Source: Magallana gigas (taxonomy: Eukaryota). Taken from it: DNA of 64,000 bases. The DNA lies in NCBI RefSeq assembly GCF_963853765.1, contig NC_088858.1, positions 7,378,001 through 7,442,000 on the forward strand, in the 5' to 3' direction. A program made the position numbers. Shown here in pieces: positions 52,201-64,000 of the stretch. The stretch's first letter is position 1; every line of letters begins with the position of its first letter.

Positions 52201-55200
52201 TCACACGGGTAATATACACCACACGTATGAGATAAAATTACACATACTCCCATAAAGATATAATATATTTTATAATATTATATTCGTAACAATTAGGGCA
52301 CAATTGCAAGTGACACAGAAATAAAATACTTATTTTAAACGGACACATTTGTAATCCTTATTAATAGAATAGAGTCTGAAGCTGAGTGTGATTCTATATA
52401 ATTAGATAAATGCGGAAGATTAATACTTGTATCGGCACGTGATTGGTGATAGATTAATTAAACAAATCCACACGGAACTTCAGAAAAATAAAAACAACAA
52501 ATATCATCATCATCGACGCCATGGTAGAAATGGTTATAATAACCTGTTTGATGCTTATTTATCTACCAGGTATGTTATTTTTTCTCTCTTATAATACCGA
52601 TTCATGATGTTTTATCGTACAGATGGAAGATTAACCTTTGTGTAATTTTCTACCCGCTGTATGCAAATTAGGTTGACCCGAAGCATATGAGCGGACAATC
52701 TTACATAATACATGTACACTATTTTAGGACTTACCGTCAAACAGAAATCTAGCCGATATTTTGCTGTAATTGTTTAACTGCCATAGAACCAGCAAGTAAT
52801 CAAATCTGAATAAGAAGATAAATAAACTGATAGTCTTGATTTTATATTACTTTATTAAGTACCACTTTATGTTGCGTTGCTTGTTTTTAAACTCTCAAAA
52901 TTATGAAGACCGAACATTTTCAAAAGAAATAAGAAAAGAAAACTTAGCAGATAAAACATTAAGGCATAAAAAAGGTATTAAAAATGTCACAGAATATTAA
53001 AAGCATCTTTCTAAAAATAAAAGTTTCAACTTAGGACCAAACTATCTTATGCTTTATTATATACCATGTAACCCTCTATGCGCAAAATTCCAACCGGACC
53101 ATTTATATTTCCAGTTTCTCTCGTGTTTTCGAGAATTGGGATAAATATTCATGTATTTGTTGAAAATTTAGGCCAGTTTTAACGTGTTTTTTGGTAAAAT
53201 AATGCAAGAAAATTAATTAATTAAAAAATGAAATTTGCAATTATTTTCTGTAGTTTGTTTAAATGCTTTGATATTAAACAACAAGGGTAAACGATACACC
53301 CGCAATGTACAATATATAGACATTTAAAAAATGAAATCGTTGTTGATTCATCCGGGACATGAACGAAGCAACATTACAGAAAAAACCATGACGGCGTTAG
53401 CGGGTTATGTATGTATTTCTACAATGAACGCTACCTTAAAACCCGCATGAATCATCAAAGAAAGCATTTTATTGTTTATATTAATATCTTTCTGTAAACG
53501 AATTGAAAGTAAGTACAAGTAACTAAATGATTCTTAATGTACAGCATTTTGTTTGATAAAAGAAACAGCCAAATCGTCTTATATGGGAATATGAGTCTGA
53601 CATCATCATGATTATATCTGAAGATTTCGACCAATTAATAAACTGCTTCGAACTGGATCGTTTCGATTTAAATCCTGTCAGTTTCGATAGAGCTGTGAAG
53701 TACAATCAATTTACGTAAGAAATAGAGGGAGTCAGACAATTTGGAGATATATATGTATGTTAAATCTTACATTTTTGTGATATTTTCAACACCATTAGTT
53801 TTAAAGCTCAATATGTTATGTTTTAAAACATTTATCAGAAATAACATACACTTTTACTAACATAATTTAAATAGTTTCAATCTCAAAGGACCCCGCTTTA
53901 ATAATGGAAAATACTATAAAAGCATTTCAGAGGTTTTTGCTGTGACTTTCACCTCTGTCTTAGAAACTTTTAGGTTGTAATACAACTGTTAGTCAAGCTC
54001 ATTGTCTTTACCAACAGCATTTTTTAGTTTAATATTAAGCTAATGCGATTTAATTTGTGGTCTAAGCTGGATTTTCAAGAGGTCTGCAATGACCTTAATT
54101 AACATTTGAACTTGAAATTTGGTTTAAGGTCGCTGCACAACCTTTACCCCAAAGCTCTGTTTATGTTACGTATGAGCCAGATAGGGTAATGGGGAGAGTA
54201 AATATGCTCTGAATTTTTTTTTTGCGTGGTTTGATATGACCTTGACCTAGAAAATTCATTTGAGATCACCGCATTTTCTTTGACCAAAGGCACTCTGTGG
54301 GTGAAGTGTGAGCCAGATTGGACCAAAGAGAGAGAATATGTAATTCGGACATGGATTTTTTTTTTTCGATAATTATGCCATGATCTTAACTTTAGACCTA
54401 GAAAATGAGTTAGAAGACGCCGCACACCCTTTATCCAAAGCCCCCATGTAGGTGAAGTATGAGTTATATTTTGCCAAGGGGAGAGAAGATGTGATCTTGG
54501 ACGGATTGACGGACGGACTGATTGATTACTATAGGGCGCCCGAAGAGCGGGGCCCTAAAACATGTTTTTTGAGGTATGTACTGTTTCTAAAAACATTTTT
54601 TTTTTAATTTTCAGCATTTCAGAACAAGACAAAAACTTTTGTGAGCTTTGTCAATTTTGTCTCATCCATACCGCTAATATCGATTCATGATTGAACACAA
54701 GATACATGACTGTACAGAAAACAACGTAGAATTATTGAAAAATATTATTATAAAGTATTTTGTATAAAGGTCAATGAAACACGCGCAACACACGGAAATA
54801 TATCTAGTAAAGCTTCTTTTCCGTTTTAATTACTAAAGCCTTATAAATGAATAACTAATCTAAAAAAAGGAAATAGAATACGGAAATATAATCGGTATTG
54901 AACTATAAACTTATCACTCGTAGAAATAATTATTTCAATTCACATTAAGGTCAGACGACACGTTCCTCGATAATCTTTTTTGTATCTCCTCGTAATGAAG
55001 AGTTCCAATGAAAATATTAATTTTATAATTACTTTAAAAATGATCACAATTTACTTGAATTTGGTTATATGTGTACATGGTCGAGTGGTAAGAACCGTGG
55101 CCGCTCACAGCCAGAAGGGTATAGGTTCTAGAGGTCGTGAGTTCAAAGCCCCGCCCCGGCGGAGATATAATTCTAATTTAGTGAGTTTCTCTGTGCTGTA

Positions 55201-63125: not shown

Positions 63126-64000
63126 AATTTGAATGGTTAATCTTTTCTGAGTTGTCTTTCATTTACCATTCCAACAGGTAAGCCATCGACTCCTATAATT
63201 GAGTCGAACCTGGAGACTCCTCGATACGGTAACACGTTGACTTTGACTTGTAGAAGTTATTCCACGTCGCAGCCAGCATATTACCGACACCAGTTAACCT
63301 GGTCCTATACATGGTACAGAAATGATTCCATCGTCTACCGAGGACACACGTACGCTTTTACAGTCAGTCGTGACGTCATGTATGACGAAATTATGTGTCA
63401 AGCAAAAGAAGTCATCTTGTCAAAAAACAGCAGTACATATAAGATTGGGTATCTGGAGAAATGTAAGTTACTAAATTGAAGGCACAATGCCTCTGTGCAT
63501 AGTTAGGGTCATGTATCTTGATCATCGGTAATTAAGTGACGCAATGAAAATAAATATAACAAGAAAAGTGAATACAGCAGTCTATTACTAATATTATCGG
63601 TCTAGTTTAAAGTGAGTATTATTATATTTCTAGCAAGACCGGCAGAACCAAAAATCGTTGGTATTTCACAAACGAATGCTAAATACTTCAGAATCACATG
63701 GAGTTCCCCATTTGATGGAGGATATCCTCAGTATTTTCTTATATATCAACAAAACATTACGGTATGGGACGTTGTTGCTAATATTAGCCAATCAAACGCC
63801 ACTATCCAATCAGCTGATGTTCCATCTGGCCCAAAAGGCGTGTACAGCGTTGCAATCATGTCTTGCAACATGCTTGGGTGTACCATGCCAGTCAAACTGG
63901 ACAGAGGTTTGTTTATCCTATGTTACATGTAGAAAATAATTACCATATAACGTTTAATTTCAGAAAGGATCCGAAAGAATATATTTGGGAGAGTTCGGTC

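What the first reader, a model, noticed from the sequence alone, without database searches (positions are those of the whole stretch)
52521..63906. Receptor built by duplication of a three-exon FN3-V-Ig cassette
Eight phase-1 exons assemble into one open frame of ~664 aa: SP, FN3-like (55982), V (57025), Ig (57429), FN3-like (61639), V (62254), Ig (63178), FN3 (63634). The two cassettes are paralogous (NVSLxDxxxYxGG; CQAKEV) but strongly diverged, especially in the V and FN3-like parts. Usual Ig/FN3 receptors (nephrin, DSCAM, Robo, L1) place Ig arrays before FN3 arrays; an interleaved order starting with FN3 is unusual. Symmetric phases permit cassette skipping. Inference: a rapidly evolving bivalve immune or allorecognition receptor family.
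Basis: partly seen in the sequence, partly recalled or inferred. Interest (0 to 1): 0.65.

Follow-up and report, generated by a model that had tools for sequence, protein, structure and literature searches.

The report
Duplicated Ig/FN3 cell-surface gene exons
The region holds real exons of a sugar-coated cell-surface or secreted protein built from immunoglobulin-like modules that were duplicated long ago; this is an ordinary kind of animal gene, and the one-protein model rests on two rare splice signals.

Summary
All are on the + strand, and all seven internal exons are phase 1-1 and multiples of three. No junction codon is a stop.

Old duplication is solid for the V-like pair (e3/e6, E 8e-11) and the Ig pair (e4/e7, E 2e-15). 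It is marginal for the "FN3-like" pair (e2/e5, E 0.061), and e5 resembles e6 more (E 3e-4).

Only e4 passes a curated Pfam cut-off (Ig_2). e8 is a weak FN3. e2 gives a moderate single-sequence model that looks FN3-like. e5 is unresolved. e3/e6 look V-like but lack both cysteines and the core tryptophan.

N-glycosylation sites are enriched: 16 observed against 7.0 expected, reached by 0 of 2000 shuffles. That argues for a secreted or surface glycoprotein.

Exon 4 can also read through to a stop at 57728, followed by AATAAA.

Transmembrane segment, receptor role, immune role, rapid evolution, family size and bivalve origin could not be tested.

Verdict: a lineage-specific member of a known kind, of moderate-to-low interest.

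The parts
52521..52569 (+). Exon 1: start codon and leader peptide (MVEMVIITCLMLIYLP + 1 base), donor CAG|gtatgt
   Evidence: The ATG sits in a gccATGG context. The nearest upstream in-frame stop is 66 nt away, with no ATG in between. It is the best hydrophobic ATG-to-phase-1-donor candidate in the whole window on both strands: 10-residue Kyte-Doolittle mean 3.09 and donor 8/9. The signal-peptide call is inferred from hydrophobicity only.
55982..56239 (+). Exon 2: beta-sandwich module, FN3-like by predicted fold (86 codons, phase 1-1)
   Evidence: Splice sites. No Pfam hit at E<=1. The single-sequence AF2 model has mean pLDDT 70.2, pTM 0.52 and is all-beta. Foldseek against PDB gives TM 0.5-0.66; 13 of 34 listed rows are named FN3 domains or monobodies, and no hit has E<=0.001. 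Atlas named hits are fn3/Ig_J at 0.91-0.92 but with low recognition of 2061.
57025..57315 (+). Exon 3: V-like Ig-fold domain without cysteines (97 codons, phase 1-1)
   Evidence: Paralogue of e6: BLASTP E 8e-11, 27% identity over 94 residues, z 15.2 against shuffles. No Pfam hit. The e3+e6 profile finds 80 PDB sequences at E<=5; all 60 listed are Ig V-type domains (PD-L1, TCR V, a shark new-antigen-receptor variable domain, CRTAM), but only at E 0.035-0.31. It has 3 sequons and 0 Cys.
57429..57710 (+). Exon 4: canonical Ig domain (C2/I type). The end shown uses the GC donor ACT|gcaagt. Alternative ends are 57680 (TGA|gtgact) or read-through to TAA at 57728-57730
   Evidence: Pfam Ig_2 E 6.8e-9, 36.3 bits against a cut-off of 27. 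Cys23, Trp44 and Cys73 are present. Donor options are listed. Paralogue of e7 at E 2e-15.
57741..57746 (+). AATAAA, 11 nt after the read-through stop of exon 4: a possible polyadenylation signal for a short secreted form
   Evidence: A random position has an AATAAA starting within 40 nt downstream in 6.3% of cases, so this is only suggestive.
61639..61881 (+). Exon 5: module of unresolved fold (81 codons, phase 1-1).
   Evidence: Strong acceptor ctcttctttctttag|G and donor CAA|gtaaac. No Pfam hit. AF2 pLDDT 51.3, unusable. Similarity to e2 is E 0.061, and to e6 it is E 3e-4, z 5.9. Atlas recognition is low at 2088, giving leads only. It has 2 sequons.
62254..62565 (+). Exon 6: V-like Ig-fold domain without cysteines or tryptophan (104 codons), with GC donor CAG|gcatgt
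   Evidence: Pfam V-set E 0.032, 14.8 bits against a cut-off of 26. Paralogue of e3. The only phase-1 GT donor in the frame is at 62494, which would remove the F-G strands. It has 5 sequons.
63178..63462 (+). Exon 7: canonical Ig domain (C2/I type), donor AAT|gtaagt
   Evidence: Pfam Ig_2 E 1.1e-3, 19.6 bits, below the cut-off of 27, but homologous to e4 at E 2e-15 with 36% identity. Cys24, Trp41/45 and Cys73 are present.
63634..63906 (+). Exon 8: FN3 domain (91 codons, phase 1-1). The donor GAG|gtttgt shows the gene continues past the window
   Evidence: Pfam fn3 E 0.062, 13.9 bits against a cut-off of 25. PDB phmmer finds the sidekick-2 FN3 at E 0.0091 and a Dscam FN3 at E 0.018. No WSxWS motif.

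Best explanation
This is the 5' part of a lineage-specific gene for a heavily N-glycosylated, secreted or membrane-anchored protein of the immunoglobulin superfamily.

A short leader exon is followed by seven single-domain exons, each phase 1-1. The order is: a beta-sandwich module (FN3-like by model), a V-like domain that has lost the Cys-Trp-Cys core, a canonical C2/I-type Ig domain, then the same three again, then a canonical FN3.

The repeat arose by an old tandem duplication of a multi-exon unit inside the gene. Only the protein-level signal survives.

Inferred, not shown: the chain forms an extended rod of beta-sandwich domains on the cell surface or in body fluid. Its V-like domains, the most diverged and most glycosylated parts, would be the likely ligand-contact surfaces.

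Joining both cassettes in one mRNA requires two GC-AG introns. Inclusion of the second cassette may therefore be inefficient or regulated, and a short secreted form ending after exon 4 is possible.
For: - Exon coordinates, acceptors, phases and junction codons fit.
- The frames are not open by chance.
- e4 passes the Ig_2 curated cut-off, and e7 is its homologue.
- e3/e6 are homologous, and all 60 listed PDB profile hits are V-type domains.
- e8 gives weak but consistent FN3 matches.
- The e2 model resembles FN3.
- Sequons are enriched: 16 against 7.0, with 0 of 2000 shuffles reaching 16.
- The leader exon is the best candidate in the window.
- No leader-like exon lies between e4 and e5. The best 10-residue hydrophobicity there is 2.1, against 3.09 for e1, and those candidates lack consensus donors. 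e5 has a strong acceptor, so it must be spliced to something upstream.
- Both non-GT donors are GC, the one alternative the major spliceosome uses (PMC7072748, passages). The GC donor of e4 (T|gcaagt) ends the exon at a length (282 nt) close to e7's (285 nt, donor T|gtaagt) and in the same phase, so I take the two as equivalent in position.
Against: - Two GC donors among 7 introns is unexpected, since GC-AG is under about 1% of introns (PMC7072748 passages; PMC3167603 abstract in the listing).
- The e4 frame runs on to a stop 18 nt past the GC donor, with AATAAA 11 nt after that.
- e2, e3 and e5 have no Pfam match, and e6, e7 and e8 are below their curated cut-offs.
- e5 folds poorly and resembles e6 more than e2.
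- There is no transcript, orthologue or TM evidence.
- Long antisense open frames overlap e2 (148 aa) and e5 (162 aa), though neither has a Pfam family below E 0.069.
Confidence: 0.55

Rival explanations
1. There are two products rather than one. Exons 1-4 make a short secreted protein (leader, FN3-like, V-like, Ig) that ends at TAA 57728-57730 and is polyadenylated after AATAAA at 57741. Exons 5-8 belong to another transcript, either a neighbouring tandem paralogue whose first exon I could not recognise or an alternative long isoform that is rarely made.
For: - The read-through stop and AATAAA sit 11 nt apart.
- The canonical GT is missing at the donor position corresponding to e7's.
- The only phase-1 GT donor in e4 matches 5 of 9 consensus positions.
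- A 3.9-kb gap separates the cassettes, and it holds a MITE-like element.
Against: - No leader-like ATG exon with a phase-1 donor lies in 57700-61638. The best hydrophobicity is 2.1, and no candidate in that interval passes KD>=2.5 with donor >=7/9; 4 candidates pass on the + strand of the whole window and 2 on the - strand.
- e5 begins with a strong acceptor and has no ATG in its open frame upstream.
- AATAAA within 40 nt occurs by chance at 6.3% of positions.
Confidence: 0.25
2. This is a decaying or non-functional copy. The two non-GT donors are lesions, and the locus is a pseudogene, or a hemizygous or dispensable copy, of an Ig/FN3 gene whose intact relatives lie elsewhere.
For: - 2 of 7 donors are not GT.
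- e5 shows no confident fold.
- 6 of the 7 domain exons are below, or absent from, Pfam curated cut-offs.
Against: - All seven domain exons remain stop-free with intact acceptors and phases.
- Sequon enrichment is preserved.
- Both altered donors are GC rather than any other dinucleotide, and their other positions fit the donor consensus at 6/9 and 7/9.
- There are no frameshifts.
Confidence: 0.15
3. These are chance open frames in AT-rich DNA, or exons of an intracellular titin/twitchin-type muscle protein.
For: - FN3 and Ig modules alternate in titin-type proteins (recalled).
- The V-like exons lack cysteines.
Against: - Stop-free odds are 3e-4 to 2e-3 per exon.
- The exons are significantly paralogous.
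- e4 matches Ig_2 above its cut-off.
- There is a leader exon, Cys pairs in e4/e7, and 16 sequons against 7.0 expected. All of these point to the secretory pathway.
Confidence: 0.03

Closest known systems
Modular Ig + FN3 cell-surface proteins of invertebrates (for example the oyster NCAM1 homologue: three Ig, one FN3, TM, ITIM tail; PMC11841013, abstract seen in the listing)
   Same: Leader, Ig domains with the Cys-Trp-Cys core, a membrane-proximal-type FN3, N-glycosylation, and one domain per phase-1 exon.
   Different: Here a non-Ig-array order (module, V-like, Ig, repeated) precedes the FN3.
LIFR (and, by recall, the leptin receptor) among class I cytokine receptors
   Same: FN3-type modules come first, then an Ig-like domain, then more FN3-type modules (PMC10022904 passages). 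An FN3-first interleaved ectodomain is therefore not unprecedented.
   Different: None of the seven exons has a WSxWS motif, and e2/e5 lack the four-cysteine pattern (0 and 1 Cys). There is no sequence match to cytokine receptors in PDB.
Hydractinia Alr allorecognition proteins (PMC9546547, passages read)
   Same: A V-set-like first domain lacks the Cys pair and mostly the Trp, is followed by Ig domains and an Fn3-like fold that sequence profiles barely detect, and is encoded in a duplicated gene family.
   Different: Alr order is V, I, I, Fn3-like, TM, with no repeated cassette. The organism is a cnidarian. Homology was not tested, as I had no Alr sequences and supplements were closed. Allorecognition function here is pure conjecture.
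Dscam / sidekick FN3 domains
   Same: These are the best PDB sequence matches of e8 (E 0.0091 and 0.018).
   Different: The matches are weak. Those proteins carry long N-terminal Ig arrays (recalled), which this locus does not.

Membership tests
Immunoglobulin superfamily, C2/I-type Ig domain (Pfam Ig_2/Ig_3) | Profile match above the curated cut-off | tested here: met
   e4 scores Ig_2 36.3 bits against 27, E 6.8e-9. e7 scores 19.6 bits, below the cut-off, but is homologous to e4 at E 2e-15.
Immunoglobulin superfamily, C2/I-type Ig domain (Pfam Ig_2/Ig_3) | B-strand Cys, C-strand Trp and F-strand Cys core | tested here: met
   e4 has C23, W44 and C73. e7 has C24, W41/45 and C73.
V-set Ig domain (PF07686) | Profile match above the curated cut-off | tested here: not met
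   e6 scores 14.8 bits against 26 (E 0.032), and e3 has no hit. All 60 listed PDB hits of the e3+e6 profile are V-type domains, but at E 0.035-0.31.
V-set Ig domain (PF07686) | Cys-Trp-Cys 'pin' and the D-x-G-x-Y-x-C F-strand motif | tested here: not met
   e3 and e6 have no Cys, and e6 has no Trp. In the PD-L1 and TCR V-delta-1 alignments the B-strand Cys column is W/R, the C-strand Trp column is H/R or T, and the F-strand Cys column is Gly, giving D-x-x-x-Y-x-G.
Fibronectin type III (PF00041) | Profile match above the curated cut-off | tested here: not met
   e8 scores 13.9 bits against 25 (E 0.062). e2 and e5 have no hit. e8 weakly matches solved FN3 domains at E 0.009-0.018.
Fibronectin type III (PF00041) | Seven-strand FN3/C2 topology in a confident model | tested here: inconclusive
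   The e2 model has pLDDT 70.2, and FN3 domains or monobodies make up 13 of 34 listed Foldseek rows at TM 0.5-0.66, with none at E<=0.001. The e5 model, at pLDDT 51.3, cannot be used.
Class I cytokine receptor homology region | WSxWS motif and four conserved cysteines in paired FN3 modules | tested here: not met
   WSxWS is present in 0 of 7 exons. e2 has 0 Cys and e5 has 1.
Nephrin / Robo / L1 / Dscam-type adhesion receptors | N-terminal array of Ig domains followed by an FN3 array, then TM and tail | tested here: not met
   The first domain after the leader is not an Ig by any test. The order is module, V-like, Ig, repeated. TM and tail lie outside the window and are not testable.
Hydractinia Alr family | Sequence homology to Alr domains and residence in a polymorphic histocompatibility complex | not tested
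   No Alr sequences were available, homologue searches and supplements were closed, and no population data exist. The resemblance is architectural only.

The most novel reading that the evidence does not exclude
The cassettes encode 'pin-less' V-like domains (no Cys pair, no core Trp) paired with canonical Ig domains and barely recognisable FN3-like modules. This is the same combination that marks the Hydractinia Alr histocompatibility proteins. Under this reading the locus is one member of a polymorphic self/non-self or pathogen-recognition family in a mollusc-like genome. The two GC donors would act as weak, regulated splice sites that let whole phase-1 cassettes be included or skipped, or let the protein be released as a short secreted form, giving isoform diversity from one gene.
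Probability: 0.07. Interest if true: 0.7.

Novelty: new member of a known kind. Interest (0 to 1): 0.3.

Why it matters
If the model holds, it is a clean example of ectodomain growth by duplication of a multi-exon, phase-1 cassette. It would also be a V-like domain that has lost the whole Cys-Trp-Cys core outside the one cnidarian family where that loss was highlighted.

That is useful for annotators, because most of these exons escape Pfam. It is mildly interesting for the evolution of Ig-fold recognition proteins.

It opens no long-standing question by itself. The immune or allorecognition reading is untested, and modular Ig/FN3 surface proteins are common.

Tried and rejected
- **Other paralogous exons in the window.** tblastn of all 7 exon peptides found only the e3/e6 and e4/e7 cross-hits. 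Nothing in 1-52000 scored below E 0.03. By eye, the other phase-1-1 open segments look non-Ig.
- **A second leader exon between e4 and e5.** None was convincing.
- **DNA-level trace of the duplication.** There is none beyond the CQAKEV and NVSL patches.
- **Profile searches.** The e2+e5 profile against PDB gave 0 hits at E<=5. hhalign of e2+e5 against e3+e6, of e2+e5 against e8, and of e3+e6 against e4+e7 gave nothing significant (E 0.72, 0.063, 0.14). e2 against e8, e5 against e8 and e2 against e3 gave no BLASTP alignment.
- **The e5 model.** With pLDDT 51.3 it was judged unusable and not sent to Foldseek.
- **ESM Atlas for e5 and e2.** Recognition was 2088 and 2061, both below the 2300 mark. 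Named hits were fn3/Ig_J at 0.88-0.92, which are leads only. The first two Atlas calls did not complete because the machine was busy, so e3 was never sent.
- **Antisense open frames over e2 and e5, and intronic ORFs.** No Pfam family scored better than E 0.018.
- **Non-coding RNA.** Rfam found 0 families at gathering score and ARAGORN found 0 tRNAs.
- **Literature on a bivalve Ig/FN3 cassette or allorecognition family.** Four searches found nothing specific.
- **Cytokine-receptor reading.** Rejected on motifs.
- **Genome contigs.** Not used, because it holds only bacteria and archaea.
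Full report
**Scope and limits.** I worked exon by exon throughout. Orthologues, paralogues outside the window and the source organism therefore stayed unchecked, and 'bivalve' is unverified. I do not take the contig for human. G+C is 0.30-0.41. The Ig exons have only weak matches to solved, largely human, Ig proteins. A neighbouring PKA regulatory-subunit ORF aligns with mammalian RII-alpha with many substitutions. The window contains no N.

- Reading the sequence and a script gives e1 52521-52569, e2 55982-56239, e3 57025-57315, e4 57429-57710, e5 61639-61881, e6 62254-62565, e7 63178-63462 and e8 63634-63906.
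- Every internal exon starts after a pyrimidine-rich tract plus AG.
- Exon lengths are 258, 291, 282, 243, 312, 285 and 273 nt. All are multiples of 3 and all are phase 1-1.
- The junction codons are GGA, ACA, GGA, TGC, ACT, GGT and TCA, so none is a stop.
- Chance is excluded. At this composition a stop is expected every 13 codons, and each exon's open frame has probability 3e-4 to 2e-3.
- Of 17 AG..GT phase-1-1 open segments of at least 210 nt on the + strand of the whole window, 10 lie in the 8 kb from 55.9 to 63.9 kb.
- The quoted motifs NVSLxDxxxYxGG (e3, e6) and CQAKEV (e4, e7) are there.

**2.

- The 664-codon frame needs two GC donors: ACT|gcaagt after e4 (57711) and CAG|gcatgt after e6 (62566).
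- In e4 the only phase-1 GT donor is TGA|gtgact at 57681, which matches 5 of 9 consensus positions and gives 654 codons.
- In e6 the only phase-1 GT donor, at 62494, would delete the last two strands of the domain.
- The GC donor of e4 (T|gcaagt) has the same phase as e7's T|gtaagt, and e4 (282 nt) is close in length to e7 (285 nt). I therefore take the two donors as equivalent in position. The DNA alignment downstream of CQAKEV is loose.
- The GC donor of e6 corresponds in position to e3's G|gtaaag.
- GC-AG introns are under about 1% of introns (PMC7072748, passages read; PMC3167603, abstract in the listing). Two among seven is therefore unexpected.
- If e4 is not spliced, its frame ends at TAA 57728-57730, and AATAAA follows at 57741-57746. 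Such a hexamer lies within 40 nt of 6.3% of positions by chance.

**3. What the exons encode.** Pfam was run exon by exon.

| Exon | Pfam result | Status |
|---|---|---|
| e4 | Ig_2, E 6.8e-9 | above curated cut-off |
| e7 | Ig_2, E 1.1e-3 | below cut-off |
| e6 | V-set, E 0.032 | below cut-off |
| e8 | fn3, E 0.062 | below cut-off |
| e2, e3, e5 | nothing at E<=1 | no match |

- e4 and e7 carry the Cys-Trp-Cys core, with about 50 residues between the cysteines. They are canonical C2/I-type Ig domains.
- e8 weakly matches solved FN3 domains of sidekick-2 (E 0.0091) and Dscam (E 0.018).
- The e3+e6 profile finds 80 PDB sequences at E<=5. All 60 listed are V-type Ig domains (PD-L1, TCR V-alpha/V-delta, a shark new-antigen-receptor variable domain, CRTAM), but only at E 0.035-0.31.
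- In those alignments the B-strand Cys, the C-strand Trp and the F-strand Cys are all replaced. e3 and e6 have no cysteine, and e6 has no tryptophan. 'V-like' is therefore a reasonable but sub-threshold label.
- e2 gave a single-sequence AlphaFold model with mean pLDDT 70.2 and eight beta strands. Foldseek against PDB returned FN3 domains or monobodies in 13 of 34 listed rows at TM 0.5-0.66. The rest were other beta sandwiches, and no hit had E<=0.001. That monobodies are engineered FN3 is from my own knowledge.
- e5 gave pLDDT 51.3, which cannot be used.
- The Atlas gave only low-recognition leads to fn3/Ig_J-type families for e2 and e5.

**4. The duplication.**

- e3/e6: BLASTP E 8e-11, 27% identity. 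z is 15.2, and 0 of 1000 shuffles reach the score.
- e4/e7: E 2e-15, 36% identity, z 19.6.
- e2/e5: E 0.061, z 3.3, with 10 of 1000 shuffles reaching the score.
- Against the neat cassette picture, e5 is more similar to e6 (E 3e-4, z 5.9, 0 of 1000) than to e2. Neither e2 nor e5 aligns with e8.
- The duplicated unit therefore certainly includes the V-like and Ig exons. The third member is probable on position and collinear weak similarity, but its fold and ancestry are open.
- At DNA level nothing survives outside the two conserved patches, so the duplication is old.

**5. Extracellular nature.**

- e1 starts at a gccATGG. An in-frame stop lies 66 nt upstream.
- e1 encodes a 16-residue hydrophobic leader, the best such ATG-to-phase-1-donor candidate on either strand of the window.
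- N-X-S/T sequons number 16 in 641 residues, against a shuffled mean of 7.0, and 0 of 2000 shuffles reach 16.
- Together with the Cys pairs, this points to the secretory pathway. Membrane anchorage cannot be judged, because e8 ends in a phase-1 donor 94 nt before the window ends.

**6. One gene or two?**

- For one gene: no leader-like exon lies between e4 and e5. e5 has a strong acceptor and no ATG in its upstream open frame. Phases match, and both odd donors are GC.
- For two products, or a decaying copy: the two GC donors, the stop plus AATAAA after e4, and the poor fold of e5.
- I put 0.55 on one gene able to make the long form, 0.25 on separate or short products, and 0.15 on a non-functional copy.

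**7. Comparison with known systems.** This is a modular Ig/FN3 ectodomain gene of the common phase-1, one-domain-per-exon kind.

- An FN3-first interleaved order is uncommon but has precedents. LIFR has a cytokine-binding homology region before its Ig-like domain (PMC10022904 passages). Titin-type proteins and Dscam are recalled examples.
- Cytokine-receptor membership fails on motifs.
- The nearest conceptual parallel for the pin-less V-like domain plus a barely detectable FN3-like fold is the Hydractinia Alr family. Its authors said they knew of no V-set or I-set Ig domains lacking both the disulfide bridge and the tryptophan (PMC9546547 passages). Homology to Alr was not tested, and that paper's supplements, which hold the alignments, were closed.
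- Four literature searches found no described bivalve family of this architecture. This says little, because only open-access text is searched.

**8. Verdict.** The functional story (receptor, immune or allorecognition, rapidly evolving, bivalve) is untested. The gene model carries an unflagged weakness in its two GC donors. This is a new member of a known kind, with interest 0.3.

Noticed in passing
window 23753-24913 (-): A single uninterrupted 386-codon open frame encodes a full PKA type II regulatory subunit. Pfam finds RIIa at E 1.8e-9 and two cNMP_binding domains at E 1.8e-46. The best PDB match is RII-alpha at E 5e-111. It looks intronless and so may be a processed retrocopy, or this lineage's normal gene form.
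   Followed up: partly
window 59446-59817: A MITE-like element in the e4-e5 intron. It has 30-nt terminal inverted repeats that are 97% complementary and 312 nt apart, with internal AGTAAACCC-type direct repeats.
   Followed up: no
window 54108-54495: Three tandem copies of a ~140-nt unit (63-70% identity over 101 nt) in the e1-e2 intron. A 136-aa open frame on the - strand overlaps them and has no Pfam match. Probably a repeat element.
   Followed up: no
window ~61446-61514 and 63064-63128: A (GA)n run lies about 125 nt upstream of the e5 acceptor, and a (TA)n run about 50 nt upstream of the e7 acceptor. Such microsatellites could affect splicing or assembly.
   Followed up: no
window 56026-56472 (-) and 61400-61888 (-): Antisense open frames of 148 and 162 aa overlap e2 and e5 and are longer than the sense exons. 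Neither has a Pfam family below E 0.069, and the second is partly a translated (TC)n run.
   Followed up: partly
window 2473-2940 (-): An open frame with a leader-like start and a weak Cupin_8 (JmjC-like) match at E 0.021, below the cut-off. It may be an exon of a neighbouring gene.
   Followed up: no
window 63962-64000 (+): An AG follows a T-rich tract 57 nt after the e8 donor, and in phase 1 the frame stays open to the window end. It may be the start of the next exon after a very short intron, but it is too short to judge.
   Followed up: no
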